Shown: positions 44,661 through 62,159 of the stretch, in pieces | Layout of the letters: every line of letters starts with the position of its first letter | Position numbering within the stretch: position 1 is the stretch's first letter | IMG/VR virus record: IMGVR_UViG_3300045988_135716 | Location: 117,096 to 181,095 of that record | DNA from: a virus | DNA length: 64,000 bases | Direction: 5' to 3' (one strand) | The notes under the pieces: model-generated | Told to the model about the DNA's origin: nothing | The model's database searches: none | Seen by the model: the letters and a program-made list of their open reading frames with translations, nothing else | Made by a program: the position numbers and the translations under genes

Positions 44661-46255
44661 CATGTGTTACTATATTAAATAAATAAAAAATTGTTCAAGT
44701 TATTTTCAATGCTTTCATTATAAGGAATGCATAATAATGGTATATTATTATCTTCGCAATATTTCTTTTTGATATTATCGTTTTTCACTCTCTTTTTAAA
44801 TCCTTCTTCGCCATTAAAAAATGGAATTGATTCATAATGCTGTTTTCCTTGGAATTCTATACATGCATTATAATCATATAAATAAAAATCAAACGGAAGT
44901 TCTTTGATATTTTTGCAATCAACAAATTTATGTTGTGTATGATATGAAATATTATGTGTATTTAACCATTTAGCTATTTCTCTTTCACCTTTAGATTGAT
45001 GACATTTAGGACATCCCGTATTTCCACCTAAAATACTATATGGAATTACATTCCATTCAAATCCATCTTTTTTACATCTATGTAAAACAGGAGTTGTCAT
45101 ATTAATATATGTCCCAATTAACTCTATATCAGGATTTGTTTTTGCTAATTCTTTAATATACATTTCTTGGTTACGTACTACTGGTCTATTGTCGCATTTT
45201 GGGCATGATGGACGAGCAAGAAAATTTGCTGGTGTAGTATACCATTCATATTCATCTTTTTTGCATTTGAACCAAAGATGCGTATACATATTTTGATATT
45301 CTCCTAAAATAATCATATTTGGATTTAAATTATATACTCGTTTTTCAAATTCTTCGTGAGTAATCTTATTCGCATTTCCCGCTTTCTCATTTCCGCATAA
45401 AGGGCATCCATGTCCTTGCAAAACATTACTTGGAGATACCTTCCATTCTATATTATGTTTTAAACATTTATGTAAAATAGGAGTTTGTACATTAGAATAA
45501 TGTTCGAGAGGAATTATAGAATTAGTGACTTCTTTTAGTTCTGAAATATATTGTGCGTCACTTCTTGTACGATTTTTTTTGAATTTTTCTGTTCTACATA
45601 ATGGGCATCCAACACCTTGTAATGCTCTTGATGGAGTAGTTTCCCAGTTAACATCATGTTTTAAACAATGATGAACGCTTTTGGTATTAGCGTCTATATA
45701 ATCTCCAATAATTTCAACATTAGGATTTTTAATTGAGAGTTCTTGCTTATATTCTTCCAAAGTTTTCTTTCTTCTAATAAAATCACATCCTTTTTTATTT
45801 ATTTGAACAATTTTTATTTATAAAGGTTCGTTAAACCCTATAGATTACTTTTAAAGTAATTTTCTTTGACTTTCATCAAAGTGCAGACCATATTATTCAT
45901 CATGCTTACTAAATTAAAAGTAAGTTTAGATGCTCTCTATTTCGTTCCACTTAGAACTACGAGCATTCCAGCTCTGGTCGTTGAGCCTTCCTCTTTTTGA
46001 GGCTTGGTTGCTGATTTTCTATTTTAAGTAAAATAAAAACACCTAGAACAAACTAGATGTCTTACTTCAATACTTAGGCTTTCACCATATATCATCTATT
46101 TAATTTTTTCTATTTTCATAACATTCACGTTTATGCTTATTTCATCATTACGTTGTAGTCTAAATAGCTTTAAGAATTTTCAGCAGTTAAGAGAGATACA
46201 CTATAAACTTTCGTAATATAGCGGACTATGTTACTAATCTTTTTCACTGTCGAGT
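44661..46255 (-). mobile_element. group I intron (TMP intron 4) carrying a homing-endonuclease ORF
   Basis: R-like element UCAACGACCAGAG with P7 GACCA (45975-79) / UGGUC (45886-90). A P9-like hairpin is CUUUGA-UGAAAG-UCAAAG. The candidate guide sequence UAUAGU-G-UAUC (46195-46205) pairs with both exon ends. Confidence 0.6.
44675..45760 (-). CDS. intron-encoded homing endonuclease: zinc-ribbon repeats + PD-(D/E)XK (Vsr/DUF559-like) C-terminal domain
   Basis: Three repeats of the form NP..E(I/L)IG.Y....T....H.C.KH...W...P...L.G.GCP.C, then LPFDFYL..IEFQGKQHY..D..K..YC..IPY. The listed TTG start lacks an SD; an ATT at 45778 lies 9 nt after AGGA. Confidence 0.65.
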   Translation of the reverse strand: MEEYKQELSIKNPNVEIIGDYIDANTKSVHHCLKHDVNWETTPSRALQGVGCPLCRTEKFKKNRTRSDAQYISELKEVTNSIIPLEHYSNVQTPILHKCLKHNIEWKVSPSNVLQGHGCPLCGNEKAGNANKITHEEFEKRVYNLNPNMIILGEYQNMYTHLWFKCKKDEYEWYTTPANFLARPSCPKCDNRPVVRNQEMYIKELAKTNPDIELIGTYINMTTPVLHRCKKDGFEWNVIPYSILGGNTGCPKCHQSKGEREIAKWLNTHNISYHTQHKFVDCKNIKELPFDFYLYDYNACIEFQGKQHYESIPFFNGEEGFKKRVKNDNIKKKYCEDNNIPLLCIPYNESIENNLNNFLFI

Positions 46256-49200
46256 ACATCAAGATATTTGTCAATCAAATCATCCAAAGCATCCAACTGT
46301 TTATCAATACCGTCCTGAATCAAATCTTTGATAGAGTCTTTTTCATCTTCAGCAGATAAGATGGCTTGTTGCTGTGCGTCAATCAGTTCATTCTTACGGT
46401 CAATGAGTTTCTGATTGTTAGGATCATTCGCAAGTTCCTCGCTGATTTTCAACATTTCTTCCTTATATTTATCTGCTTGCGCCATATAAGTGTTATAGTT
46501 GACACCATGTAATCCCATAGTGGCAAGACCTTGTTCTGTCATATTGCCATCTTTGTCATACATATCCTTATGGCTCATAAGGTCAATAAGGAAATCTGAC
46601 TCACTGGTAATACGACCGATGGCTTCCTGCAACTGGTCAAACTGTTCCCATTTAAGATCACGAATAGATGCTTGGAATTCAACCACTTTGTTTTGTGCTT
46701 CTTTAAGGCTGATCGCAACTTGGTCAATCTCATTCTGCATCTCATAGTATTCTTCCGTACCTTCTTTGATTCCACTATTTGGATCTGCTACTAAATTCGC
46801 AAAGTTACGTTTCATTGCAATATACTTTTGAGACAGATTGTCAACAATTTTCTGTTGCTGTCCAATCTCTGCTTCGTAGAATTTCGTACTCAGATTGTAA
46901 CCCTGTGTCTGCATCCTATCCATGTATGCTTCATACATAGAGTTCCTGTTTTCCCATTGAGAAGTAAAGGAATCATAATAGTTTGCAATATTCTCAAGTT
47001 TCTTCTTTGCATTTTCTACGATAGACTGTGCGTATTCTGCCTGAGATTGTGCCGCTTCGCTTGTTGCTTTATCCAAAGCTTCCTGTTCAATACGAAGTTT
47101 CTTGCTTAAATCCGCAGATTTCTTGACTTTTTCATTATAATCTTGAATCCATTTCAGCACTTTAGGATCAGTGATACCTTTTGTGCTTACTGTTTTACCT
47201 GCCTTTAATGCCTTTTGTTGAGTTTTATTCAACTTAGACATAGCAGATTTATTGTTCAGAATTTTATTCTGAGATTTCGTTTTATTAGCATCAGCAGTAT
47301 CATAGTTGCTTTTTGCTTTCATATAGCTATCACGAGTCTCTTTTAAAGCTGTCTGACGCTGTTTGTTCTGTTCCTTGAGATTCTTAGTTTCCTGTGTAAG
47401 AAGCATATTCTGGTATACATATGATTTCTTACCTTTTGTTGTCGCAAGAATCTGCTGTTCCTTGGTAGAACCTGCATATAACTTCTCTTTATTCTTCTGA
47501 GCCTTAGTCAGATTATCAAGGGCTTTTTCGTCTGCTTTCTTAGCGTTGTCATATACTTTCTGTGCAGAAGCTTTCTCTTTTGCATCAGTGTTATATGCAA
47601 CTGCGGCAGATTTTAATACGCCTGACATTCCAGAAGTCTTAACAGTTTTACCTGCCTTAACCTTGGAAGCAATAGTATTACCTTGTTTTAAAGAACTGTT
47701 ATATGATTTCGCATATTTTAGTGCAGAACCTTTCAGTCCTTTCAAATTTACTGGTTTACCTTCACGGACTGCCTGTGCAATTGCATTATAAGTAGCTTTA
47801 TCGGTACTAGACTTTGCGGCATTTTTCAATTTCTTGCCTATGGATTTTGTCTGTTTCTCACTTGTCTTGATAAGCGTATTCCCTGTAGACTCTGCATCAG
47901 CCGTAGCAGATTTTAAATCCCTGCTTGCTTTAGCACGAGTTTTCTTGGTGACATTTCTGGCAGTTTCAGCCTTATCAAGCTTCTTCTGTGCATTGCCAAG
48001 ACCAGGATTGTCAACTTTAATCTGATTCTGCATTGCTGCGATTGCAGATCCACCCAATGAAACAGTATCAGAAACAGCATTGAGAGATTCAAGTTTAGTC
48101 TTTAATCTGTCAATTTTTTTCTCTGCCTTTTCTGTAGGCATATTTACGATTGTTTCATATAATTCCAGAAGTTTGTTGTTTAACTCCTGTACTGTGTCTT
48201 TACAATCTTGCGCTGAGTTGTAAAATTCTTGAAATTGCTTAATATCTTTTGCTAACTGTTTACCAGAGTCAGAAGATGTGTCAATTTCCTCAATTGAGAA
48301 TGTACCATTGATTACCTTATTCTTATAGTCGTCACTAATATCAACAGAATTAGCTTTATTCATATAAGCAGTATAACCCTGTTCATTCGCCTTGAGTTCT
48401 TTTTCAACTGCTTTGACCTGCCTCTTGAGAAGTACAGTTTTAAAAGCGGAAGATATGTAGTCCGTAATCTGATTAGAGATGCGTTCTACTGCTTTGGAGA
48501 ATTTCTTAAGTTTTGTCTCTACCCAGTTAAAAGTTTCTGTGGAATCAGACTTTGCTTTTGTATTTTTCTCTGTTTCATCTGTATTTCTGGCAACTGCACC
48601 AGAATTGGCGTTATAAGATTGTTGAGATGATGAGCCACCACTGGATGAAACCGATGTTTTATTGGTGTACGGTTGGTCTTGTGAGAATTTAAAACTTCCT
48701 AACCCAAAAGCATTTGAAAGTGAAATATCACTCAGACTTCCTTGAGCATATGCTCTAGCATGACCAGAAGTAGCACCATATTTTAATAAATCCTGTGTCT
48801 GTTTAGCGGAAAAGATAATATCATCTTTTTTCACATTTTCAAAATGTGCTCCACCAGGAATAAGTGACCATACTCCATCACGCACCCTTGATTCCATTCC
48901 AAGTTCATTCATTAATGCAACTTGATCGTGGTCTACAGATATTTTCCCATTTGCATATGCAGGTGAAAAATCAAAATTATCAAGACTACCAAAAGCATAC
49001 GCTCTTGTACGACTAATAGATGTCATTGTACCTGTTGCTTGAGCACCTTTGCCTTTAATATTATTTGTAATATTATTGGTAACATGATTTGATGTAATAG
49101 TAACAGTCTTACTATGAACACCAGCTATAGCACTAACTAAAGCATTAACTGCATCTGTACCACTTACATTTGCTGTAACGTCTACAGATTTACTATTTAC

Positions 49201-52200
49201 ACGCTGAATAGCAGAGTATAAAGCATTGGTTTCTGGCGTACCATTGACGTTTGCCGTTACATCAACAGATTTATTATGTAATTTATTAAGAGCTGCGTCT
49301 AATGCTGTAATTTGTGGCAATCCATTTACAGTTGCCGTAACCGTAACATCTTTGTTCTTATTAGTAATAGCTTCAAATTGGCTATCCTCTAATTTAACAG
49401 TAAGAGGTACTGTTATTTCACCATTCTGAATGGATTGCAATTCTGCTCTAGCTGCATCAACTTGAGAAGTATCAATGTTAAGAGTAGTAGATAAATCCTC
49501 ATCAGTCATGTTAAGAAGAGAACTAATATCTGCTCCTTGTGCTAATGTAGCATTCACCTTAACCTCAACATCTTTATCTTGCAAATAGGAAAGTGCTTCT
49601 TGATAACCAGAATCATCTAACTCAAATTTTGCTCTGAATGTAGCTTCATCATTCTGAGCCATATCCAATAACTCTGATGGAGTTTGTCCATCAGTATCAA
49701 GAGCAACTTTAATCTTATAGTCTGTCTCCGTCTTAGAGATTAAATCATCTAATTCCGCAGATGCTTCTGGATTTACTTCTGCATCAATTTCCGCTTTCAA
49801 CCCATTTAACTCATCAATCTTAGATTTTAATTCATCTGCCGACATATCAGCAGTATCAAAGTCTAATTCAATATCAGAGCTAATATCACCAGAAGACTGT
49901 AAATCTTTAAGAGATTGTACCTTTTCAGAAGTTGTATCAGCAGTTTCGCCTGCTTTTTCAATATCTGAATCATCTACCTCTGGTTTGATAACACCCATTG
50001 CTTCAAGAACTTGACCTAATTGGGATGCTTCATCTTCGCTAAGTCCAAGAGATTGACAAATTGTATCTAACGCTTGTTCCGCAGGTTTTAATTCATCACT
50101 GTCATAAGCACCATCAAATAGGTCGATGCCTTTAACCTGATCAGAAGTAAATCCTTTCAATGTTTCCATTGCGTCAGAAACTTCTTCCTGCCCTTTTTGA
50201 ATTTTTGATACAGTACTATCAAATACTTCTTCTGTAGCAGAATCATCAAACTCAGGTTTAACAGGATTATCAATAGTTGCATTTTTCAACGCTTCTTGAT
50301 ATGCAACAGCAGCTTGCGCAGCTTTTTGACGCATATCATCTAAATCAAATCCATATGTATCAGCATACCCTTGCATTTGTTGGTCAAGATAATTTGCAAC
50401 ACCCATAGCGTTATCTTCACCACCAAATTTCTCAGGATTAGCAAGAACTTCTTTCTTGTAATCATCCATTAATTTAATGGCTTCTTTTGCCGTTTGTTGT
50501 TGCTTATTATACTCATCCGCTTGATGTTCAATATAATATTGCATATTATCAGATAAATCTTCAATATCTTGACTATATGCTTTTACTTCATCTCTTTGTG
50601 CTTGAATCCTAACATCACTATATTCTGATGGATTTTCTTCCATCTCTTTTAGTTTTGCTTTGGAATCTGCCAATTTCGTATAAGCATCACCAAGTTTTAA
50701 TACACCGTCTTGAACATCATCAACGGTATTATCATGAAGTCCGTAGTCTTGCATTTTCCCAAATGCTGCACTAGCAACATCTGTACCAGTAGCGAGAGCT
50801 TCGGCTGCTTCGGCTGCATTATGAGCCTTAATTGTCCACTCGCCAGTTTGCTGATTAAATTCTGCTAAATCATGTGATTTAAGGTCATTAAGGAAGTTCT
50901 TAACACCCTCATCACCTTCTTTCAAATATCTATTTGCTTTAGCGTAGTTCTCAGCAAAATCCGCAGGATCAGTAGCACCAGTAGGAGAAATCATGGCAGC
51001 AAAAGACTTAAATGAATCTGTACCTGTCAATCCATCTTGAAAATCTTTATATGCTTGTTCAAGTCCACTAACAATATTATTGTATGGTGTACCTGCTGTC
51101 TCTTTGGAACTATTCAGTACCCATTGATTATAGTCGGAAAACATATCCTTCATTTGCTGATATTGAGCATTATACTGAGATTGTGCCTGTTCAATACCTG
51201 CTATATCAGACAAGATTTGTTTCTGCTTATCTCTAGCTGAATTTTTCTCATCTTCTGATTTTGTAACATCATCAATGATTTTTTGCTGTTCTTGATAAGC
51301 TTCATTTTGAAGCCTGATGGACTTAGCAAAATCTTCAACTTTCATATCACGCTGTTTCTTGATAAGAGTTTTTACAGCGTCAGAGTTCATTGTCACGCCT
51401 TCTGCTGTATCTCTAAAAATACCATCAAGACTTGCATCTTTGAATGCATCATTCTCACTAACTAACGATGAAAGCGCAGTTTTAACCGCTGTTATGGAAT
51501 CTGCTGTCATTCCTGTGTTTGACATAGATTCTGACATTGCAGTTGAGAGAGAGGAGTATGCAGTAGTAGTATCGGTTACTACTTGTTTCATATTCTCAAG
51601 AGTGAGACGAGATGTGTCTTGGACATTTTGAATCTGAGCAACCATTTGTTCAAATGATTGTCCATCATATTGTGTATCGGACAGCATTGTACCAAGAGTT
51701 TCTAAATCCGCAATACTTAAATCTCTTGATTTAATACCTGTTGTATCGTTCCATCTTTCGGCAACTTTTGTTTGAATATCATGAAGATTTTGCCATTGAT
51801 CTGCAATACCAGATGCTTGCCGCATTTGTTCACGTGAAAAACTTTTACTTTTTTCACTAGCTTTATCAAGAGTTTCATCTGCTTCTTTTTGCCACGAATC
51901 AAATGATTGTTTAGAACTATCATCATTTATTGTAAATACATCATTTAATGCATCTTGAATGTCTTTATTTTGCAGTTCTTTTACAGCGGATTGACTCCAA
52001 GATTTTAATTTACTAATTGCTTTATCACCAGTAAACCCATTTTTCTCTAAATCTTCATATGAAAAAGAATTTATTAATGATGTAAGTTCACTGTCTATAC
52101 TTGGAACATCATCTAATAAATTTTGATAAGCTCGTTGTTCTTGAAAGAATGCAGGAATATAACTTTTTAATTCATCAGCAGAGTTTTCGCGTTGATTTCT

Positions 52201-53304
52201 TAAAGATTCTTGTGATCCAATAATAGTATTAAGGAAATCATTAGTATCGCTATTAGCTTTAAGTTTCCCTTGTGAGTCGTTTAATTCATTTATTAATTTA
52301 CCGAAGTCTTTTACACTAACTCCTGCATTATCAAGTGCGTCTACGAAATTACCATCATCTAACCATTGGTTTAAATCTAAAAATTTGTTACCACCTTTGC
52401 TTTTAAAAGCGTTTTCATATGCAGATTGGAATTTTTCCAATGATTGTAGCTGTTGGTCTGTACCTGCTTCCTCCCAAAACCAATTTTTATCTTGGTTAAC
52501 TTCCGCATTTAATTTGTCGATTACATCTTTAGCATTTTTAACACTTTCAGTATATTGATTGACTTTTTGTGTTTTAAGAGTAGCTTTTAATGTATCAACA
52601 TCTGTTGCAGCTTTAATAATCGGTTTTCCTAGTGAATCATATCCTGATACCAATTCTGGAAATTGTGTTGCAATCTGAGATGCCAATTCTTGATATTCAG
52701 CATATTCTTCATTTGTTAATCCAAGATTTGTTCCTAAAGAACTCACGCCTTTTGAAAGAGTAGTATATTTTTCGCCATTTGTTTCAATCCAGGAAGAGGA
52801 TTGAGCCATCTGCTCATTTATATCTTTATAATTCTGGATTACTTCATCGCCAGATTCAATTGCACGTTCTTGTTTATTAGATACATAGTCAAATGCTGTG
52901 GCAATACCTTGAATTGCGGCAGAAACAGCAAGATTAGCCCCAATGTTAATTGCTGATGCCTTAAATACTGAACCAACATCTTTTAATCCAGTTTTAAACG
53001 CATCCCATTTGCTTGTAACAACAGGAACTGTTCCACCTTGGCGTTGAATTGCCGCCGTTAAATTTTCAGTACTTGAAAGTGCTGCCTTATCAACATTATT
53101 CTTTTGATCTAATTCGTGAATATAATTACCAATATAAGCACCATATGTTCTTTTAAAATCATTTGATGCATTTGCATCTCTCAGAACAGCATCAACATTA
53201 GGAGCATTTCCTGCTCTGTATTGAGAAGCCATCAAACCCGACACTGTTTTAAGCGTATTATTCGTTGCAATTTTATTTTGCATATTAGCAATTGATTGAG
53301 CTAC
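46256..53304 (-). CDS. tail tape-measure protein, exon 4 (main coiled-coil body)
   Basis: 2349-aa ORF rich in coiled-coil sequence and Ala/Gln/Lys repeats. There is no SD before its ATG (53283), and the frame opens at 53304. Confidence 0.75.
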
Positions 53305-53336
53305 CTACGATTTTTATATACTTGGGATGTATATTG

Positions 53337-53345
53337 TGCTATAAT
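53337..53345 (+). promoter_or_regulatory. extended -10 promoter (TGcTATAAT) for the plus-strand cargo genes
   Basis: TGCTATAAT at 53337-53345, about 40 nt upstream of ATG 53387. No good -35 element is present. Confidence 0.45.
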
Positions 53346-53386
53346 GCATAAATGAAATTACTATAAACAAAGTGAGAGATAGTTGT

Positions 53387-53728
53387 ATGGGAGTTATAAT
53401 ATTTTTAATTATTTTATTCGTATTGAAATTACTAGCGGATGGATCATTGGATTTTATTTATCCTATTATAATGGGTATATTAGCCATTATTTGTCCAATA
53501 GTGAGTTGTATATTACTTTATGATGGTGGACGTGAAATATTATTATCGTGCGCATTCCTGATTTTGATTACAATAGCAGAATTTATAACAGTAATATTTT
53601 TATCATCTAAATTTATTCTTACATCGAATGCTAAAAAGAATAGAAGAGTAATTGGATATATTCTAATTATTACCTCTGTATTGTGTATTTTACTAATTAT
53701 GATTCGTTGTTTAATGATACTATTATAA
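53387..53728 (+). CDS. small 4-TM membrane protein
   Basis: 113 aa from ATG 53387 (the listed ORF starts at GTG 53372). It has four hydrophobic segments. Confidence 0.55.
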   Translation: MGVIIFLIILFVLKLLADGSLDFIYPIIMGILAIICPIVSCILLYDGGREILLSCAFLILITIAEFITVIFLSSKFILTSNAKKNRRVIGYILIITSVLCILLIMIRCLMILL

Positions 53729-53745
53729 ACGAAGGAGATTTACAT

Positions 53746-54597
53746 ATGATACCAGAATATATACAAAACATTATTTTAAGATATGACAAAGAGGTTTGCA
53801 ATGAAATATCTGCCATAAATCTTGCTATTGAAAGAATAAAAGATTCTCTCAAAGTAATAAATGAAGTTATCTCGTCAGATTTATTTTCATATATGAAAAG
53901 CGATAAAATTTTTGATAAGGAAAAAGAAAATCAATTACTACAAGATGCTCAAACTTTAAGAGAATTTATATCTTCAATTGATAATATTCATGAGTCTAAA
54001 GTAGTTAAAAAATCTCAGATGATAACTTTCCATAAAAACTTATCTATACAAGACATCATCGTGTTAAAAACTACTCAAAAATGTAAACATGAAAGCCATG
54101 AGATGCAAGATGTAATAGCTAAAATTCCTGTTTTATATGATACGTGTGATGTTCAATGCTTAGATGTTCAATTGGCATATTGTAAAACATGTGGTAAATA
54201 TTATATGTTGAAATCTGATTTTGACATGATTAGTGGAATAATATTATGCCAAGTTGTCGATCAAACAACTAACAGCACAAATAGCCAGGATGATAATTTT
54301 ATAGCATTACAAAAACAATCTGTTCTTTATCGGTGCGGATATACAGTAAGCAGTCAAAGAAAATTATCAGCAGAAGCTAGACGTATTATTCTTTGCTCAG
54401 TAATTGAATCTCGTTTAATGACAAAATTGGAAATTAAAGATCACCTTAATATGCTTATTGAACGTGGAAGTAAAATTCCATCGTGGGAGAACGCAGTTGT
54501 AAAATGGAAGTTTGATAAAAAATTTATAAATGATTATCAACAAGAAAATGTTCCGCAAATTGTATACGAAAAGATTGTATTAAAATATAAAAAATAA
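53746..54597 (+). CDS. hypothetical protein with helical N-terminus, Cys-cluster (Zn-ribbon-like) centre and conserved-looking C-terminal domain
   Basis: ATG 53746 lies 8 nt after AAGGAG. Contains KCKHESHE..CDVQC..YCKTCGKYY. The C-terminus is LYRCGYTVSS..LSAEARRIIL..W..AVVKWKFDKKFI. Confidence 0.55.
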   Translation: MIPEYIQNIILRYDKEVCNEISAINLAIERIKDSLKVINEVISSDLFSYMKSDKIFDKEKENQLLQDAQTLREFISSIDNIHESKVVKKSQMITFHKNLSIQDIIVLKTTQKCKHESHEMQDVIAKIPVLYDTCDVQCLDVQLAYCKTCGKYYMLKSDFDMISGIILCQVVDQTTNSTNSQDDNFIALQKQSVLYRCGYTVSSQRKLSAEARRIILCSVIESRLMTKLEIKDHLNMLIERGSKIPSWENAVVKWKFDKKFINDYQQENVPQIVYEKIVLKYKK

Positions 54598-54652
54598 AAA
54601 TTGTGGTTATAAATAGGAACATTATTTGTAGGTGTTTGTTAGGCAATAAAAG

Positions 54653-54679
54653 TGGTGACTAAGTTTAACTTAGTCACCA
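54653..54679 (+). terminator. stem-loop terminator after the plus-strand cargo genes
   Basis: 11-bp stem TGGTGACTAAG / CTTAGTCACCA with a 5-nt loop. Confidence 0.5.
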
Positions 54680-54771
54680 TAAATTATGTTTATATATTGT
54701 CGTTGTAAGTCTTCGAGCCTAGAAGATTATATAAAATGAAAGAGCCTAGCCAAATCTACTAGACTCTTTCG

Positions 54772-54855
54772 CAATTAAGTTTTGTTGCCAATTAGGTTTT
54801 ACTTCCAATTATCTTTAAAGCTCAATTAAGTTTTAAATCAATTATCTGTAATTGA
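54772..54855. repeat. five tandem ~17-bp iteron-like repeats (CAATTAnnTTT..)
   Basis: Unit starts are at 54772, 54789, 54806, 54823 and 54839, giving spacings of 17, 17, 17 and 16. Confidence 0.6.
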
Positions 54856-55569
54856 TACTATATCATATCACAATATGATTGTCAACTATTAATTATAAAA
54901 TTCTTTTCATTTTCCCTTTTGATGATATTTTCATCTTCCATTTTGGAAATTATATCTTGAATAAATTGCTTTGGTAAAAATAATTTTTCACATAATCCAT
55001 CTCTAAGCCAATTATATCCAAGTTGTTTTCCATTATTTTTCGGATCATTATGCCAGTCAATAATAAATTGTTTGACCGAATTATACCAGTATTCAAGGTT
55101 TAACCTTTCTGAATCTATTTTAAATAATTTGATTAAATCACAAGAAAAGTCACAATATGAATTAAAATGAGTGGTTTGTGACACATTTGAACTTGTATAA
55201 TATAAATGAATTTTTTTACCTTTATATTTTAATCTACTCATAACTGGTATCATATCACTATCAGAAGTCACAATAACATATGTATCTATATTAGATTCTC
55301 TATGAGTCATTTCAATAGCATCCATACTTAATTCAATATCTGATGCATTTTTCCTATATTTATCATCTTTATTATTTCCATAAACATTTCTAATCTGTAC
55401 ACGTTGTTCCTGTAAATTCCTTAAACTTACATCTACTTGTTCAAAATCTGCATATGCTCTAAAAGTTCTTATTCTATCTTTCCCGTACATTATATTTATA
55501 AATTTACAAAAGTTATATTCATCACTAGAAACATTTATACCATATTTTTTCATACTATGATATAAATTA

Positions 55570-56681
55570 ACTTGTTGTGCTAGATAAAATAAAATATAAA
55601 GAAACTTCAACAAAATATGCTATCCTTTTTGTAGGGAATACAACGAAAGGAGGCATCATTATGTTGAAGTTCCAAGATAATAATACCACTGTTATTGCAA
55701 CTTTTGAAGACTTTATTTTAACTGCTTACGTTATTATTGACGAATTGTATCATCAGTTTGCACCTCCAGAAGTTACCAGACGACGGCATATCCTGAATGC
55801 AAAATTATCTGACTCAGAAATCATTACTATCAGTCTCTGCGGAGAATTGGCAGGCGTTGATTCTGAGAATGCATGGTTTTCTTTTGTGAAACGAAACTAC
55901 AGGCATCTTTTTCCGCAGCTTTGCAGCAGAAGTCGTTTTAACAGAACGAGACGCGCCCTGATGCAGACAACAGAATTGTTACGACAAAAAATGATTTCCG
56001 TATTCCCAATTCCAGTCAGTTCCTATTACATCGTCGATAGTTTTCCACTTGCAGTCTGTAAATTTGGACGTGCACGATATTGTAAAGCATTTCGTGGCCA
56101 TGGTGCTGATTATGGAAAATGTCCTTCCAAAAAAGAAACCTATTATGGATATAAAGTACATGCATTAATTACATTAGAAGGATACATTGCATCATTTGAG
56201 ATCACACCGGCATCTACAGATGATCGTGAAGGATTACGTGATCTGGCAGACCATTGGTCTAATGTTACAATTTTAGCGGATAAAGGCTATGTTGGAAAAA
56301 ACATGAAACAGGAAATGCAGGAAAAAAATATCTGTCTTTTTGCTCTGAAACGTTCCAACAGTAAGGAAAATTGGCCGAAATCCGTACGTCAGTTAATATT
56401 CAAACTGAGAAGGCGGGTAGAAACCGTATTCTCTCAATTGAGTGGTCAGTTAAATGCAGAAAGAGTGTTAGCCAAAAGCTTTCAGGGGTTATGTACCCGT
56501 CTGGTTAATAAAGTACTGGCATACAATCTCTGTATTGCATTGAATAGTATTTTCGGTGAAACCTGTGAACTTGGAAAAATCAAAAAATTGATATTCTAAA
56601 AATTTTATTTTTTAATATCTGTAAGGATTCTTTGCGGTTTTACAGGTTTTCACATAATCTATTTGAAGTAGCACAATAGGT
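55570..56681 (+). mobile_element. IS982-family insertion sequence (1112 bp)
   Basis: Terminal inverted repeats are ACTTGTTGTGCTAG and the reverse complement ACCTATTGTGCTAC. It is flanked by a 7-bp direct repeat TAAATTA (55563-55569 and 56682-56688). Confidence 0.8.
55661..56599 (+). CDS. IS982-family DDE transposase
   Basis: ATG 55661 follows AAAGGAGG. Contains DSFPLAVCKFGRARYCKAFRGHGADYGKCPSKKETYYGYKVHALITLEGYI..TPASTDDRE..ILADKGY. Confidence 0.8.
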   Translation: MLKFQDNNTTVIATFEDFILTAYVIIDELYHQFAPPEVTRRRHILNAKLSDSEIITISLCGELAGVDSENAWFSFVKRNYRHLFPQLCSRSRFNRTRRALMQTTELLRQKMISVFPIPVSSYYIVDSFPLAVCKFGRARYCKAFRGHGADYGKCPSKKETYYGYKVHALITLEGYIASFEITPASTDDREGLRDLADHWSNVTILADKGYVGKNMKQEMQEKNICLFALKRSNSKENWPKSVRQLIFKLRRRVETVFSQLSGQLNAERVLAKSFQGLCTRLVNKVLAYNLCIALNSIFGETCELGKIKKLIF

Positions 56682-57596
56682 TAAATTATCATAATCTACT
56701 AAAATACATACATTTGTACATTTTCTAACTACATCTTTTACTGAATCTAATTCATTGCTATCAAAAATATCCCCATTCATTAAAATATTTCCCTCTTTCG
56801 TATAATTATTTGGTAAAATTTACCATAACACTATTATACGACAGAGTACGACAATCTACAATTCAGAACATATATTCTAAATCTACGATTATGCTAATAA
56901 TCATGTTGATTATGCAATTTAAAAATGTTTCATCATTCATATGATATAATATTTCCTATAATATTAATAGGAGAGTGATATAAGTATGTATGAGAAAATA
57001 TGCAAAATTTTAATTTATATATGTATGATTATTGCGTTACTTTGTTTAATTGGAACGACGTATATTACATACAAATATTAATTTTGGTTGTATCATTAAT
57101 TCTATATTTGCAATATTTATATATGTCGATACAACCATATATAAATAATTCCCAACTGCTGATGGAAGAGTAGTATATAGAAACTATCCCTGAATTTATC
57201 GGGCATCCATCTTCCCTATCGCTAGAGTGCATTTTTATGATTCTATATAGAACCATACTTTCGTTACGCTCGTTGAGGTCGGCATCCATTATAATGAAGC
57301 CCTACCTGCGGATTACTTCGTAGTTTGGATTGTTACTATACCGCATCCTTTCGGATTTGCCACTTATATCTATTAAATATAAGTTTAGTACCAAACTCAT
57401 GTGACATAGCCTTTTGAACTATGAAAGTTTCCCGTTCTGAAATTCAATACAGAAGAGTAGCGCATTACCGCTAACTCCATTTTAGAAAGTCACCAGAGAG
57501 TCCTTGCTTATAAATAAGCTCGTACACATTACTGCTAAACTCTCAAGCGGCATAAGTCATTTTGAAAAATGCATGGGGCGAATCCCATGTACTCTT

Positions 57597-57957
57597 ACCG
57601 CTGTTGTTTTTACCTTGAAAAATACCTAATCCAAGTGCCATAACATTAGGCAAATTAACAAGCTTGCTATCTGATTTTGCAAGTTTTGTCATTACACCTA
57701 AAGCTTTTGTACCAGTATCTACAATACCTTTAAACATATCGGAACTAATTGCACTGGTAGAAAAATCTTGAAATTGTGCCTTCAAATGAGAGAGAGAAGC
57801 TTCAATACCTTTATTCCAAGATTCAAGTTCTCTTTCACCTGATCCATCTGCATCATTTAATGCAGTTTGAAGAGATTTTCGAGCAACGTCAAAATTGGTC
57901 ATGAGGGAGGAAACAATATTACCCTGGCGTTTGCCCGCTATAAGTTCTGTTAAACTT
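57597..57957 (-). CDS. tail tape-measure protein, exon 3
   Basis: Encodes (A)SLTELIAGKRQGNIVSSLMTNFD... The listed ORF 57543..57902 is its read-through form. There is no SD. Confidence 0.65.
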
Positions 57958-58010
57958 CATTATTTCTTTATACGATTCGCAACATCGTATGTGTTATTAA
58001 AATTTTATAA

Positions 58011-59432
58011 TTATATTTCTTTTATAATGTTTAATTCTACAAATTTGTCAAATAAAAAAGAATCAACGTTTTCAAATTCTGTATAAGGAATACGAATCAA
58101 ATTAATTCCATTTTTATTGCAATACTCATTTTTCATTGCATCATGTTTTTGTGTATATTTTAATTTTTCTATAGCATCTTCTTTGGTTTGAGATCCATGT
58201 GAAACAGGATAAAAATGTTGTTCTCCATCATATTCAACAATAGTATTAAAATCTGTTAAATAACAATCAAACGGTAAAACATTTTTATCTTTACAATCAT
58301 CAAATGTCTTACCTCTTTCTATTTTATATCCCCAGGATTCGATTAAAGCACAAACATATTCTTCTTTATATGTTACTCTAGTTTTGCTACAACAATTTAG
58401 TCTAGTCATTACGTTAGCCCATGTTGATTCAAATTCATAATTATGCTCATTACATCTGAATTTAGTTTTAGAAGATGAGTTTATATATTCTCCAATAATA
58501 TCGACTTGTGGATGGACATTATGTAGCAACTCTGTTGCTTTTTCAAATGAATAAGCAAAAACTTCTCTTTTTCTTTCTAATAAGCATTCATCGCAACCAC
58601 TAACTTCATTTTCTTCACGAAGCATTACGGATAAAGTCTTTTTAAATTCTTTTTTATGCTTTTCACAAAACCAAATTGAATTAGAATTATGAATACCTAA
58701 ATATTTTACTACTTTAATATGATCAAATTTTTTATTAATCCTGCTTTGGACTTCTTCATCTGTCATGAAATGTTGTTCACTTAATTTTTCCGCACCACAG
58801 TATTTACATCCTTCACCTTTTAAAATATCTTGCATTGATTTATATGTTTCTTCATTATGTTTTAAGCATAAACATTTCATTGAAGTTGTCATGTTTGTAT
58901 ATGGTTCTAATAATTTTATATTTGGATTAACTTCTTCTTTTTTCTTCATTACATACCATTCTGGGAGTGGCAATCCATTGCAATAAGCGCATCCATCTTT
59001 TGCTTTATTTAAAACAAACCATCTATATTTTGTTTGTATACCAAGTTCTTTATGTTTATCACAAGTATATAAAATCATTAATTTCCCATTAATTCTTTTT
59101 GTGGTAATATAATTTAATCCCATTGATTCGATTTTTTTCTTATCGGACTCATAATCAATTTCAATCTTTCTACTTGATTCGGTTTTCTCACGTCCGCAAT
59201 AATAGCATCCCCTATTATTATAATACAAATGAGCAAAATCAATAGTTTGTTCTCCTTTATCTTCGTGTTTTGGACAAATATATCTTAACTTTGATTTCGT
59301 ATTTACATATTCATTTTCTGATGAAAGTAATTTGTATCCATGTTTTTCAAATTCATTTTTAACAAATTCAAAATCATATTTTGATTTTCCTTTAGTTGGA
59401 GAGATATATTTTATTTTCTTATTCTGACTCAT
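58011..59432 (-). CDS. intron-encoded homing endonuclease: zinc-ribbon repeats + PD-(D/E)XK (Vsr/DUF559-like) C-terminal domain
   Basis: 473 aa, with ATG after AGGTGA. It has four to five Cys-pair repeat modules and the C-terminus LPFDCYL..VEYDGEQHF..D..K..YC..L.RIPY, paralogous to ORF 44675..45760. Confidence 0.65.
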   Translation of the reverse strand: MSQNKKIKYISPTKGKSKYDFEFVKNEFEKHGYKLLSSENEYVNTKSKLRYICPKHEDKGEQTIDFAHLYYNNRGCYYCGREKTESSRKIEIDYESDKKKIESMGLNYITTKRINGKLMILYTCDKHKELGIQTKYRWFVLNKAKDGCAYCNGLPLPEWYVMKKKEEVNPNIKLLEPYTNMTTSMKCLCLKHNEETYKSMQDILKGEGCKYCGAEKLSEQHFMTDEEVQSRINKKFDHIKVVKYLGIHNSNSIWFCEKHKKEFKKTLSVMLREENEVSGCDECLLERKREVFAYSFEKATELLHNVHPQVDIIGEYINSSSKTKFRCNEHNYEFESTWANVMTRLNCCSKTRVTYKEEYVCALIESWGYKIERGKTFDDCKDKNVLPFDCYLTDFNTIVEYDGEQHFYPVSHGSQTKEDAIEKLKYTQKHDAMKNEYCNKNGINLIRIPYTEFENVDSFLFDKFVELNIIKEI

Positions 59433-59464
59433 TTTTTATCACCTATTATTTATCCTTTCTGTAA

Positions 59465-59638
59465 TTATTTCTCCATATAAAAAGACACCAGAGCTTTAAA
59501 TAAGTCTGATGTCTTCGTATATTTATATGTAGTTATTCCATTTATTTCTTTTACAAAAGAGTAGTTAATACCTTTTGATTGAAGATATTTCATTTCTGGT
59601 ACATATTGTGTACTATATTCTTTATCAAATTTTTTCAT
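59465..59638 (-). CDS. small intron-borne ORF (57 aa)
   Basis: ATG 59638 follows AAGGA. The product is MKKFDKEYSTQYVPEMKYLQSKGINYSFVKEINGITTYKYTKTSDLFKALVSFYMEK. It falls below the ORF-track cut-off. Confidence 0.4.
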   Translation of the reverse strand: MKKFDKEYSTQYVPEMKYLQSKGINYSFVKEINGITTYKYTKTSDLFKALVSFYMEK

Positions 59639-60059
59639 ATATTATCCTTTTATAATTTCAATAACACCTCATACTTTCATATGAGTTGCGACTATTTCTT
59701 AACCACATCCATAATGGATAGCAGTCACACCTTTTCGTTTTATAGGATTTTCACCTGCGCCTTTGCGATTGCGCCCTACGACTATTGCTATAAATATTCA
59801 GGATTTCCACCTTTATTTTTATTTTATAGCCCTACATGGGTCTAGTCTGTGAACGTTTTCCCTCGACTTAACTAACATCTGATAAATGTATAACGTTAGG
59901 GAACTTCGCTGCATGAACAACCATTGTTATATCTCTGTGTTTTCAAACCGTCATAATCTAGTTTCCTGATTATTGTGGTACAGAGCTTTAGGTATTACCT
60001 GCAATTAAATGTGTTCTAAATATATATTTCTATATATTCAGGCAAGTTTTAAGAATTTT

Positions 60060-60272
60060 GCCTGCTGAATATCTGTTAAATCTTGCCACTTAGTAGATAA
60101 TTCATCGAGAATATCATATGTAGATTTAAACTCATTTTCGTTTTTCATAATATCCACACCACTAAGAGCCATAACTTCTTGTCTTAGTTTTGCGGTAGAT
60201 TCTGCCATACCTTCGGTGTCAAGACCTGCCTTTTCCATGTCTGTTGACGCACCTCTGATACGCATTGAAATT
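60060..60272 (-). CDS. tail tape-measure protein, exon 2
   Basis: Encodes ISMRIRGASTDMEKAGLDTEGMAESTAKLRQEV..WQDLTDIQQA, a TP901-type TMP core. The flanking residues in listed ORF 60038..60301 come from intron read-through. Confidence 0.7.
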
Positions 60273-60795
60273 CCTTGTATTTTAATATGATCGCAACTCA
60301 TATTACTTTATATAAAAATAAAGCTCATGGCTTCCCATGAGAGTAGACTATTTCTTAACCACGTTTTATGAATAAAACAGCAGTCACACCTTTTCGTTTA
60401 AAGGTATTTAACCAACGCCATTTGCTTGCGTCCTACGAGTATTGACTTAGATATTCGAGATTTCCACTCTTATTTTATAATCTAATTAGATATTTCTAAG
60501 TCCCGACATGGCTCTAGTCGTTGAACCTTTACCCTCGACTCAAGTACCGTATGATCTACGGAATACGTTAGGGTACTTGGTTGCATGAACAGTGATTCCT
60601 AATTTATACAAAATTAGTAAATATGATATTTAGGTTTTTGACCATGTATCATCCTTACGTTGTTTCTGCTTTCGCCCCATCATAGTGTGATTATCTCCAC
60701 TATTGTGGTGTAAGGCTTTACACTTTACCTGCTTAGTATTAAATGTGTTCAACTACGCACATTTCTGTACGTAAAGACAATTTCGATAAAATTTT
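60273..60795 (-). mobile_element. ORF-less group I intron (TMP intron 1, 523 nt)
   Basis: R element GGUUCAACGACUAGAGCC (60510-27). S element AAGAAAUAGUC with P7 GACUA (60515-19) / UAGUC (60345-49). The P9 hairpin is at 60323-40. The guide sequence is GAAAUU-G-UCUU (60774-84). Confidence 0.7.
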
Positions 60796-62159
60796 GTCTT
60801 GAAGGCAGTGCCTACAGAATCTGGATCTTGTACTACACTATTTGCTGCCGTAATTAAGGCTACAGTTTCTTCAAATGTGTTGTTTGCAGCTTTCATTGAT
60901 GAAGCTGATCGAGTTAAACCATCAAAAATACCTGCCGTATCAATCGGTTCAGTATTCGCAACCTCATTTACAACATCAACTACTTTGGTTACTTCATCAG
61001 CATTCATTTGGAATCCTTTTAATGTAGAAATTAATCCACTAGATGCGGATTCCTGTGTCATATTATCTCCTACTTTTTGTAATAGAGATGTAGCGTCTGA
61101 TAATTTTTTGGCATCATCTAATTTATAACCTAGTCTTGACCAATCAGCGGTACTACTAATAACATCACTAATTGTCGATCCATATTTTGTTGCGCTTTGA
61201 GCTGCTTCATCCCAGTATTGCGATAATTGTGTACCAGAAGCATTACTAACTTTTGTTAATTCAATCTGTGCTGCATTTACATCTTTAACAGCAGAAATTG
61301 CTTCTGTTGGAAGTTGAACCATAACTCGTTGCAAGCCAGCATAAATTCCAGTAAACTGAGCAATTTGTCCAAGCGCACGTTTCGTTTCACTCCAAGTAGA
61401 ATTACCACTTAATCCTTCCGCTTGGATTCTTGCTTTTAAATTTGTAAATGCCTTATCATAACTAGCTTTTTCCTCAACAGTTGTCATTGAACGATATTGT
61501 TGTTCTAGTTCTTTCAGTTCCGCTCCATATTTCTTAACTGCTTTAGAATTTGCATTCATATATGAAACAACTTTATTTCCAGATGCACTAGCGATAGATG
61601 GAGATAGTGCTTTTGACGATTCGTCTCTAATTTGAGACAAAGTATTCTTAAAAGTATCTCCTGCTTTAGTCATATCTTGAAAAGTTTGTTGTAACTGTTT
61701 TTTACCTAAAACATTTGATCCATTGTAATGATTTTGAAGTTTATCTAAAGCCTGATTATATGAAGCTAGAGCCGCTGTAGCCTTTTGAATATTTGCAGTA
61801 TCTTGAGTTCCATATGCCCCTAATTGTTTGCTCATTCTGGATGATGCGGCTGCATATTTTCCTGTGTCAATATTATATTTTAATTTATTTGTAGGGTATC
61901 TGTTTGAATTGTTGTTCCTACTAGGATTGTTATTTCTAGGTAAATTATTATTCGGTATATTTGGGGTAGGCATACCTTTAAGCATATTTTGAACTTGTTT
62001 AATTTGATTTATCAAATTGGTAAGTTGCTTTTGCCCTTTAACCTGAAAGTTAAGAGATACAGGTTTATTTTGCATTTTATTTAATTTTTGTTCAAGCTCA
62101 TTAACTTTTTCCGCACCATGAGTAACAACATTTACGTCAACTTGAAATTGCGCTCCCAT
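60796..62159 (-). CDS. tail tape-measure protein, exon 1 (N-terminal, TP901-type)
   Basis: ATG 62159 follows AAAGGAG. It ends ..AANSVVQDPDSVGTAFK(T). The last 13 residues of listed ORF 60753..62159 come from intron read-through. Confidence 0.8.

What the first reader, a model, noticed from the sequence alone, without database searches (positions are those of the whole stretch)
57958..60795. Two paralogous group I introns lie 213 nt apart, with covariation-supported helices and a C-G rather than U.G pair at the 5' splice site
Introns 1 (523 nt, no ORF) and 2 (2102 nt, two ORFs) share long conserved blocks on the minus strand: UCAAC/CACAGACUAGA, AAGAAAUAGUC and GCAUGAACA. These match the classical R and S elements, and P7 is GACUA/UAGUC in both. 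Several helices show compensatory changes. P9 is CUCAUGG-GAAG-CCAUGAG in one and CUCAUAU-GAAA-GUAUGAG in the other. Near the 3' ends, an identical 7-nt loop GUUGCGA sits on different stems (60283-60304 versus 57970-57990). The guide sequences differ exactly as the exons differ. In intron 1, 5'-GAAAUU-G-UCUU pairs contiguously with exon 1 AAGAC and exon 2 AAUUUC. In intron 2, 5'-AAACUU-G-CCUG pairs with exon 2 CAGGC and exon 3 AAGUUU. In both, the exon nucleotide opposite the guide G is C, whereas group I introns almost always have U there. Both insertion sites fall in the most conserved TMP motifs, which is typical of homing.
Basis: partly seen in the sequence, partly recalled or inferred. Interest (0 to 1): 0.7.

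Follow-up and report, generated by a model that had tools for sequence, protein, structure and literature searches.

The report
Two C-G-site group I introns
A phage tail tape-measure gene is interrupted by two related self-splicing group I introns whose cutting site has a C-G pair instead of the usual U·G wobble, and in 22 of 25 related introns from other gut phages that pair is also Watson-Crick.

Summary
On the minus strand, removing 60795..60273 (523 nt) and 60059..57958 (2102 nt) restores one tape-measure (TMP) core domain. Intron-less homologs and a 98%-identical allele lacking intron 1 read straight across both junctions. The introns belong to a family I recovered from 60 viral contigs, nearly all in TMP genes at many different sites. 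On 25 non-redundant members, a group I (IA-type) fold of 97 pairs is 98% paired, against 37-42% for slid controls, and 58 pairs show compensatory change. The fold includes the P3/P7 pseudoknot, P7.1/P7.2 and a bulged-nucleotide P7. Rfam's group I model reaches only 24 bits against a threshold of 50. The C before each 5' splice site is real. It is codon position 2 of a conserved Thr or Ala, so U is excluded. Across the family the splice-site pair is C-G in 16 members, U-A in 6 and U·G in 3, even where U would be silent. Paralogous group I introns in TMP genes (Tourasse & Kolstø 2008) and C·G splice sites (Hur & Waring 1995) are already known. The family-wide loss of the wobble appears new. A probable third, 4.3-kb intron lies downstream.

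The parts
60796..62159 (-). TMP exon 1. It ends ...GCC TTC AAG AC, and the final C is position 2 of a Thr codon.
   Evidence: ORF listing. PF10145 positions 2-139. Junction fixed.
60273..60795 (-). Intron 1: a 523-nt group I (IA-type) ribozyme with no ORF. The terminal G (omega-G) is at 60273.
   Evidence: The relative MT835469 carries a 379-aa endonuclease ORF between P9 and the terminal hairpin.
60774..60784 (-). Intron 1 guide sequence GAAAUUGUCUU. G60778 pairs with the exon C at 60796. GAAAUU pairs with exon 2 AAUUUC (P10).
   Evidence: Sequence. P1 covariation: 6 of 7 pairs change on both sides.
60283..60305 (-). Intron 1 terminal hairpin. Its loop GUUGCGA (60297-60291) is complementary to the internal loop CGCAA (60430-60426).
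60060..60272 (-). TMP exon 2, 213 nt. It ends CAG GC, and the final C is position 2 of an Ala codon.
57958..60059 (-). Intron 2: 2102 nt, same ribozyme family. The core is 60059..~59668, ORFs are inserted after P9, and the terminal hairpin and omega-G (57958) follow.
60039..60049 (-). Intron 2 guide sequence AAACUUGCCUG. G60043 pairs with the exon C at 60060. AAACUU pairs with exon 3 AAGUUU (P10).
   Evidence: The same guide UUGCCUG pairs with CAGGU (U·G) in locus L032.
58011..59432 (-). Intron 2 homing-endonuclease ORF, 473 aa.
   Evidence: phrog_559 at E = 2.5e-52, phrog_9084 'homing endonuclease', phrog_7140 'intron encoded nuclease'. The C-terminal DNA resembles annotated phage homing endonucleases.
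59465..59638 (-). Small 57-aa ORF directly after P9 of intron 2. It has no family assignment.
   Evidence: No hits in Pfam, NCBIfam or PHROGs. The same ATGAAAAAATT(T/C)GA... start recurs after P9 in other family members.
57970..57990 (-). Intron 2 terminal hairpin. Its loop GUUGCGA (57983-57977) is complementary to the internal loop UCGCAA (59768-59763).
57597..57957 (-). TMP exon 3. The open frame runs on to a stop at 57543, but homologs diverge after ...KNNSG.
53305..57596 (-). Candidate third intervening sequence, about 4.29 kb and probably another group I intron. It carries an NYN gene, an IS transposase and two antisense ORFs. It lies outside the finding.
   Evidence: No Rfam support.
46234..53304 (-). 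Remainder of the TMP: the giant ORF of 2349 aa from its first ATG, taken here as putative exon 4.

Best explanation
These are two self-splicing group I introns of the phage IA type (the subclass with extra helices P7.1 and P7.2). They sit in the tape-measure gene of an SPbeta-like phage or prophage of gut Firmicutes.

Inferred mechanism, from standard group I chemistry:
- Each intron pairs the last five exon nucleotides plus its own first two A's with an internal guide (P1).
- An external guanosine attacks after the exon C.
- The upstream half of the guide then pairs with the next exon (P10).
- The intron's terminal G enters the G-binding site in P7 for exon ligation.

Shown by comparative sequence analysis:
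- The nucleotide at the cleavage site is C, paired with the guide G. In this window a U would change a conserved Thr (ACA) or Ala (GCA).
- The intron family as a whole accepts C-G, U-A or U·G at this position.
- A conserved 7-nt loop near each 3' end pairs with an internal hairpin loop. This would bring the 3' splice site back to the core even when 1.6 kb of ORF is inserted after P9.
- Intron 2 carries a homing endonuclease and is probably mobile. Intron 1 lacks the endonuclease ORF that its MT835469 counterpart carries at this position, so it is most likely a deletion derivative.

Shown: junctions, fold, covariation, family distribution. Inferred: catalysis, order of steps, homing.
For: Junctions:
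- The spliced product is a contiguous PF10145/TIGR01760 domain.
- Nine intron-less homologs read through both sites.
- The allele in L062 that lacks intron 1 has ...TTCAAGACAATTTCC....
- Among equally scoring junctions, only C|...G| leaves omega-G.
- Family members L003 and L009 have unambiguous C(-1)/omega-G junctions.

Fold:
- 97 pairs on 25 sequences are 98.0% paired, against 37-42% for slid controls.
- 58 pairs have changes on both sides, and the covariation score is 0.456 against 0.05-0.09 for controls.
- The P3 pseudoknot covaries.
- The P7 extension pair flanking a bulged nucleotide is A-U in 21 members, U-A in 3 and C-G in 1.
- RF00028 aligns P8, the S element and P9 of intron 1 (24.3 bits, E = 4.5e-4 for the 571-nt search).

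Coding constraint: Thr in 115 of 116 and Ala in 86 of 89 homologs at the junction codons.

Family tally at the splice-site pair: C-G 16, U-A 6, U·G 3.

Loop-loop pairing: UUGCGA with UCGCAA, with compensatory variants in L011, L045 and L032.

Mobility:
- The endonuclease ORF matches phrog_559, phrog_9084 and phrog_7140.
- Close relatives differ in intron presence: P0012 lacks intron 1, and P0014 has an intron at a third site.
- They also differ in ORF presence.
Against: - No curated model calls them group I. Rfam gives no hit at gathering score on the window and nothing at E<=10 on the 3.6-kb region. The single-intron hit is below threshold and aligns only the 3' half.
- P7 itself cannot covary in my set, because the search pattern fixed it.
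- No RNA data were available. Splicing, GTP dependence and the exact junction are inferred.
- From memory of the Tetrahymena literature, a C-G pair at the cleavage site lowers docking and reactivity, so the rate in vivo is unknown.
- The window junctions have a 1-2 nt A/AA ambiguity that is resolved only by requiring a terminal G.
Confidence: 0.88

Rival explanations
1. They are group I introns, but the true splice sites lie 1 or 2 nt downstream, after AAGACA or AAGACAA. That would make the nucleotide before the cut an A paired with U, and the intron would end in A rather than G.
For: The intron starts AA(AA) and the following exon starts AA, so three junctions give the same mRNA.
Against: - A terminal G is a defining requirement of group I ligation (established knowledge).
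- In every family member with a mapped 3' end, a G sits exactly at the position that pairs C/U(-1) with the guide.
- L003-type and L009-type members have no ambiguity and use C(-1)/omega-G.
- Even under this rival there is still no U·G wobble at the cut.
Confidence: 0.04
2. The insertions are not removed. The TMP gene is broken into fragments in a decaying prophage or a split gene, and the RNA-like conservation is a relic.
For: - No expression data were available.
- The same gene has a further 4.3-kb interruption containing an IS element.
- Rfam does not call the introns.
Against: - Exon 2 is 71 codons with no start codon of its own, and reading frames are restored exactly.
- The same intron family interrupts TMP genes in about 60 viral contigs of 40-180 kb. 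Helices are kept by compensatory changes, meaning selection acts on RNA structure.
- Guide sequences track each exon context.
Confidence: 0.04
3. A canonical U·G wobble is formed after all, either through an alternative P1 register or through C-to-U editing of the pre-mRNA.
For: U·G is near-universal. [quoted passage not shown]
Against: - No U lies within reach of a guide G. The nearest exon U's are 7-8 nt upstream, and choosing them would delete the conserved FKT or alter the frame.
- The same guide UUGCCUG pairs with CAGGU in L032 and with CAGGC here, in the same register.
- A U would encode Ile or Val in place of the conserved Thr or Ala.
- RNA editing is not known in phages (established knowledge).
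Confidence: 0.02

Closest known systems
Group I introns TMP-IVS1/IVS2 (IA2) and IVS3 (IA1) in tape-measure genes of Bacillus cereus-group prophages (Tourasse & Kolstø 2008, NAR 36:4529, PMC2504315)
   Same: - Same host gene type (phage TMP), with several insertion sites per gene.
- Closely related introns at different sites have P1/P10 adapted to each exon context.
- Introns insert in the most conserved gene segments.
- ORF-containing and ORF-less versions both occur.
- IA-type architecture.
   Different: - The hosts are different (gut Clostridia/Erysipelotrichia).
- No DNA similarity of the ribozyme core to any annotated phage except MT835469.
- That paper stresses insertion after U, whereas most members of this family follow C or have U-A.
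- I could not compare the sequences directly, because the B. cereus introns are not in the collections I could read.
Aspergillus nidulans / Podospora anserina mitochondrial group I introns with C·G at the 5' splice site (Hur & Waring 1995, NAR 23:4466; title seen in the reference list of PMC6468297)
   Same: A natural C-G pair replaces U·G at the cleavage site. From the title and my memory of the abstract, the C is kept because it encodes a conserved amino acid. That is the same logic as Thr (ACA) and Ala (GCA) here.
   Different: - Those are two isolated fungal organellar introns.
- Here a whole phage intron family shows C-G or U-A in 22 of 25 members, including at silent third-codon positions where coding does not force it.
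Multi-intron phage genes with IA2 ribozymes, such as Staphylococcus phage Twort orf142 (three introns) and T4 td/nrdB/sunY (from memory, not tested here)
   Same: - Several related self-splicing IA introns in one late or essential phage gene, with short internal exons.
- ORFs inserted in peripheral loops.
- P7.1/P7.2 subdomain.
   Different: Those introns have the canonical U·G. No sequence similarity was detected. Rfam's model does not reach threshold here.

Membership tests
Group I intron | P1: an internal guide sequence pairs with the end of the 5' exon | tested here: met
   7-bp P1 in both introns. Across 25 family members, 6 of 7 P1 pairs change on both sides and 94.6% of cells are paired.
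Group I intron | U·G wobble pair at the 5' splice site | tested here: not met
   C-G in both window introns. Family tally: C-G 16, U-A 6, U·G 3. This feature is near-universal but has known natural exceptions (Hur & Waring 1995), so I do not treat it as excluding membership.
Group I intron | Terminal guanosine (omega-G) at the 3' splice site, and P10 pairing with the 3' exon | tested here: met
   G at 60273 and 57958. P10 is 6 bp in each: AAUUUC/GAAAUU and AAGUUU/AAACUU. Omega-G was found in every family member with a mapped 3' end.
Group I intron | Conserved core: P3-P8 and P4-P6 domains with the P3/P7 pseudoknot | tested here: met
   P3 (cols 55-61 with 458-470), P4, P5, P6, P7 and P8 are 96-100% paired. 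Compensatory changes occur in P3, P4, P5, P6 and P8. Slid controls are 37-42% paired.
Group I intron | G-binding site: P7 with a bulged nucleotide next to a G-C pair | tested here: met
   GACUA/UAGUC is invariant, but it was fixed by the search pattern. The flanking pair across a 1-nt bulge is A-U in 21 members, U-A in 3 and C-G in 1, all paired. Function as a G site is inferred.
Group I intron | Match to the curated covariance model (Rfam RF00028) at gathering score | tested here: not met
   No hit on the window or on 57400-61000 at E<=10. When 571 nt are searched alone the score is 24.3 bits against a threshold of 50, covering the 3' half only.
Group I intron | Mg2+- and guanosine-dependent self-splicing | not testable with these tools
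   Needs in vitro transcription and splicing, or RT-PCR.
Subgroup IA (phage-type) | Extra helices P7.1 and P7.2 between P7 and the 3' strand of P3 | tested here: met
   Helices at A3 cols 331-339, 340-401 and 376-388 have 9 pairs changed on both sides and are 100% paired. I did not attempt assignment to IA1, IA2 or IA3.
Mobile (homing) intron | Intron-encoded homing endonuclease, and presence/absence polymorphism among close relatives | tested here: met
   - The 473-aa ORF hits phrog_559, phrog_9084 and phrog_7140.
- P0012 (98% identical) lacks intron 1, and P0014 has an intron at a third site.
- MT835469 has an endonuclease ORF in intron 1.
- Endonuclease activity and target were not testable.
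EDxHD (I-Bth0305I-like) homing endonucleases | Sequence or structure match to the family | tested here: inconclusive
   One DNA-level hit is annotated 'homing endonuclease EDxHD' (H24). There is no PDB sequence match at E<=1. Pfam gives only sub-threshold DUF723 and DUF2726.

The most novel reading that the evidence does not exclude
This TMP-intron family has given up the U·G wobble as its 5' splice-site determinant.
- The cleavage-site pair is Watson-Crick (C-G or U-A) in 22 of 25 non-redundant members.
- This includes at least seven lineages where the exon nucleotide is a silent third-codon position and a U·G would cost nothing.
- At one and the same TMP site, GGC:G and GGU:A alternate by double change.
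If these introns splice efficiently, the ribozyme must select its cleavage site in a way that differs from the wobble-receptor mechanism worked out for Tetrahymena and Azoarcus.
Probability: 0.45. Interest if true: 0.7.

Novelty: new variant of a known kind. Interest (0 to 1): 0.55.

Why it matters
- The U·G pair at the 5' splice site is among the most conserved features of group I introns. It is the textbook example of a wobble pair used as a recognition signal. A natural, abundant family that mostly uses C-G or U-A offers a ready set of ribozymes for asking how cleavage-site choice works without the wobble.
- The family shows that a C at the insertion point is not a barrier to intron invasion, contrary to a common assumption when predicting homing sites.
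- Practically, these introns and the probable third one split one tape-measure gene into four or more ORFs that annotation pipelines call separately. Rfam does not detect them. Tail-gene annotation in gut phage catalogues is therefore systematically fragmented.

Tried and rejected
- **Rfam, main finding.** Gathering threshold on the window gave nothing. E<=10 on 57400-61000 gave only noise. Only the isolated intron 1 gave a sub-threshold RF00028 hit.
- **Rfam, downstream element.** E-value searches of the candidate third intron in the window, L063, L011 and L060 gave no group I or II hit.
- **Alternative junction** ...GCCUU|...G|AAUUUC, which would give a canonical U at -1. Rejected because it deletes the conserved FKT seen in all homologs.
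- **Inteins.** Rejected because both insertions have stops in all frames and intron 1 has no ORF.
- **Group II intron** for the 57.5-53.3 kb element. The motif GAGCGUAACGAAAGUAUGGUUC is too short for domain V, and there is no RT ORF and no Rfam hit.
- **Second protein search** with an exon 3 + giant-ORF chimera. It returned only exon-3 matches, so it gave no fused homolog. tblastn against phages did give one.
- **PDB sequence search** with the endonuclease: no match.
- **Literature.** I looked for the IA-specific 'P11' tertiary pairing to name the loop-loop contact, and found nothing usable. The Hur & Waring paper is not held.
- **Covariation test of the third element.** With 17 relatives at 88-98% identity it was too shallow, giving only hairpin-level support.
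- **A full covariance model** of the ~400-nt family was not built, because calibration limits would refuse it. I used pair counting on the MAFFT alignment instead.
Full report
**1. What is in the sequence**

On the minus strand an ORF starting at 62159 matches the phage tape-measure (TMP) domain PF10145, but only profile positions 2-139 of 201. It then runs into stops at about 60753.

Removing 60795..60273 (523 nt) and 60059..57958 (2102 nt) joins three segments in frame. The 663-aa product then matches PF10145 positions 2-198 and TIGR01760 (TP901-type TMP core) positions 10-345 of 349 as single stretches.

**2. Are the junctions right?**

A search with the spliced protein found 742 relatives.

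- Nine that lack introns at these sites read ...VGTA(F/L/M/Y)KTISMR(I/V)RGA... and ...DIQQAS(V/L/I)TELIAGKR... without interruption.
- One cluster (P0012, 98% identical, 369 member sequences) lacks intron 1 but runs into intron 2. Its contig reads GCATTCAAGACAATTTCCATGCGT, which is exon 1 end plus exon 2 start.
- A more distant contig with neither intron reads CTTAAGACAATTTCT and CAACAAGCTAGTGTT.

Each intron begins with AA and each downstream exon begins with AA, so three junctions give the same mRNA. Two other family members (L003-type, L009-type) have no such ambiguity, and they too have C before the 5' splice site and G before the 3' splice site.

**3. A family, and its fold**

A pattern built from the two conserved blocks (GTTCANNGACTAGA, then 135-165 nt, then AAGAAATAGTC) found 60 viral contigs and 6 bacterial genomes or MAGs, among them Thomasclavelia, Coprococcus, Eubacterium and Lachnoclostridium. 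In all but two of the 54 unique viral sequences (both with too little upstream flank in the locus), tblastn shows the intron inside a TMP gene, at more than eight different positions of the core domain. Neighbouring genes are YomU/V/W/X-like, that is, an SPbeta-type tail module.

On 25 non-redundant members (alignment A3), RNAalifold predicted 94 pairs, 56 with compensatory changes. I added P3 as a pseudoknot and counted pairs:

| Measure | Proposed structure | Slid controls (1-3 columns) |
|---|---|---|
| Cells paired | 98.0% | 37-42% |
| Pairs changed on both sides | 58 of 97 | 12-22 |
| Covariation score | 0.456 | 0.05-0.09 |

No shuffle out of 500 reached the observed values.

The helices are, in order: P1, P2, P3, P4 (with a bulged A, as in Tetrahymena), P5 with extensions, P6/P6a, P7, two extra helices between P7 and the 3' strand of P3 (P7.1, P7.2), a small multi-helix junction, P8 and P9. 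The extra helices are the hallmark of subgroup IA.

P7 itself is invariant because the search pattern fixed it. The pair that extends P7 across a single bulged nucleotide, the arrangement of the guanosine-binding site, is A-U in 21 members, U-A in 3 and C-G in 1, always paired.

Rfam's RF00028 does not reach its threshold. There is no hit on the window or the 3.6-kb region. Intron 1 searched alone gives 24.3 bits against a threshold of 50, correctly aligning P8, the S block and P9. I regard this as insensitivity of the curated model to this lineage, not as evidence against a group I fold.

**4. The splice-site pair**

In the window, the C is position 2 of ACA (Thr) at site 1 and of GCA (Ala) at site 2. 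Among homologs that read through, Thr occupies the first codon in 115 of 116 and Ala the second in 86 of 89. A U would give Ile or Val. This is the argument made for two fungal mitochondrial introns by Hur & Waring in 1995 (citation seen; the paper itself was not available).

The family adds something more. The pair between exon position -1 and the guide is C-G in 16 of the 25 sequences, U-A in 6 and U·G in only 3. For almost all classes I fixed the 3' splice site by three independent criteria: the conserved terminal hairpin, a G 9-12 nt later, and in-frame continuation of the TMP.

- Window intron 2 and L032 share the identical guide UUGCCUG. It faces CAGGC in the window and CAGGU in L032, so the register is not in doubt.
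- Where the exon nucleotide is a silent third-codon position, I find C-G in L009, L011, L015 and L060. I find U-A in the L008 group, L019/L050 and L038, and U·G in L004, L012 and L032.
- At the same ...GG|K... site, L060 has GGC with guide G, and L008/L035 have GGU with guide A.

So the wobble is not preferred even when it would cost nothing. From memory of the Tetrahymena literature (Pyle et al. 1994, title seen; Barfod & Cech 1989; Doudna et al. 1989), Watson-Crick replacements weaken docking and the first step. How well these introns splice is therefore an open experimental question.

**5. The 3' terminal hairpin**

In every mapped family member a 6-9-bp hairpin lies 9-12 nt before the 3' splice site, after any inserted ORF. 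Its loop, (G/A)UUGCGA, is complementary over 6 nt to UCGCAA in the loop of an internal hairpin between P7.2 and the 3' strand of P3.

Three lineages change both loops together:

| Lineage | Terminal loop | Internal loop |
|---|---|---|
| L011 | UUACGA | UUGUAA |
| L045 | UUACGA | UCGUAA |
| L032 | UUUAA(A) | (A)UUUAA |

In the window the partners are 60297-60291 with 60430-60426 (5 bp) and 57983-57977 with 59768-59763 (6 bp). I infer a tertiary loop-loop contact that brings the 3' splice site to the core. I could not confirm from the literature whether this equals a named IA interaction.

**6. Mobility and history**

- The 473-aa ORF of intron 2 matches phage endonuclease families: phrog_559 at E = 2.5e-52, phrog_9084 'homing endonuclease', and phrog_7140 'intron encoded nuclease'.
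- In the 92-98% identical human-gut phage MT835469, intron 1 carries a 379-aa ORF of the same families exactly between P9 and the terminal hairpin. The window has only 31 nt there. Window intron 1 therefore lacks the endonuclease ORF its MT835469 counterpart carries and is most likely a deletion derivative.
- Close relatives differ in which sites are occupied.
- The two window introns are 71% identical over the core. Intron 1 is 86.7% identical to an intron at a different TMP site in another phage (L050), and intron 2 is closest to L016 at 77.7%. They are members of one family that arrived separately, not products of a recent duplication within this gene.

**7. Comparison with what is known**

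Tourasse & Kolstø (2008) described group I introns at three sites in TMP genes of B. cereus-group prophages. These included two 80%-identical IA2 introns whose P1/P10 had adapted to different sites, and insertion into the most conserved gene segments. The general phenomenon is therefore known.

C·G at a 5' splice site is also known, as a rarity. What I have not found described is an intron family in which Watson-Crick pairs at the cleavage site are the rule. I file the finding as a new variant of a known kind.

**8. Beyond the finding: a probable third intron**

The exon-3 frame stops at 57543, and a 2349-aa ORF starts at 53283.

Evidence that one TMP is split here:
- The TMP of C. difficile phage AR1086-1 aligns in one stretch with the tail of exon 3 plus the N-terminus of the giant ORF (tblastn; BLASTP E = 3e-16).
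- The TMP of contig L012 is uninterrupted at this point and also aligns across it (E = 6e-6).
- In many other phages the ORF breaks immediately after a conserved (F/I)-K-N-x-(G/D) motif.

Close relatives keep about 660 nt after the break and about 480 nt before the giant ORF at 96% identity, but differ in between.

By eye, the 5' part offers:
- a P1 with a canonical U·G (CAGCGGU|AAG... with CUUAUGCCGCUUG);
- P/Q-like and R-like blocks.

The 3' end has the same design as introns 1 and 2:
- a hairpin AUAUAC-AUCCCAA-GUAUAU;
- 11 nt, then G (53305);
- an in-frame exon;
- a loop complementary to UUGGGA at 57155-57150.

The predicted element (57596..53305, 4292 nt) would carry an NYN-domain gene, an IS transposase and two antisense ORFs. 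No Rfam model supports it, and the available relatives are too similar for a covariation test. I give it roughly 0.6 probability of being a spliced group I intron.

**9. Verdict**

The introns are ordinary in kind and already have close precedents. They are unusual in one defining detail, and that detail is shared by a large, previously unannotated family.

Noticed in passing
window 57596..53305 (minus strand): Probable third intervening sequence (~4.29 kb) in the same TMP gene.
- Uninterrupted TMPs in C. difficile phage AR1086-1 and in contig L012 align across the break.
- The 5' end has a U·G-containing P1.
- The 3' end has the hairpin + 11 nt + G design of introns 1 and 2, with a loop (AUCCCAA, 53328-53322) complementary to UUGGGA at 57155-57150.
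- There is no Rfam hit.
   Followed up: partly
window 55577-56599 (+) and 54882-55613 (-): An IS-type DDE transposase gene (PF13612/PF01609) and an NYN-domain gene lie inside the putative third intron. In the relatives MT835469 and L062 this middle segment is replaced by other cargo, while both flanks stay 96% identical.
   Followed up: partly
window 59465-59638 (-): A 57-aa ORF sits directly after P9 of intron 2 and has no hit in Pfam, NCBIfam or PHROGs. ORFs with the same start (ATGAAAAAATT(T/C)GA...) follow P9 in several other family members that carry different downstream sequence.
   Followed up: no
L001 (MT835469.1) 4819-6000: The near-identical phage has a 379-aa endonuclease ORF in intron 1, inserted between P9 and the terminal hairpin. 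The window has only about 31 nt there.
   Followed up: yes
L070 (OR397124.1, Clostridioides phage AR1086-1) 5619-5920: Two CDS annotated 'hypothetical protein' (628 and 2070 aa) are the two parts of one TMP. They are separated by about 300 nt exactly at the ELIAG|KR site that hosts introns in other phages. This is probably an unannotated ORF-less intron.
   Followed up: no
L050 and L052 (viral contigs): tblastn shows three or more breaks in the TMP core of these phages, so TMP genes with three or more introns seem common in this group.
   Followed up: no
L002, L016, L050, L057 downstream of the TMP core ORF: A second, different conserved RNA occupies the same K-N-x-G/D site in other phages. 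Shared blocks are UAUAAUCCGAU(G/A)GUAA..UUGCG(C/A)AAGCAAUGUCGGGAUAA and GUUCA(G/A)(A/C)GAGCA. It looks like another group I family that Rfam does not detect.
   Followed up: no
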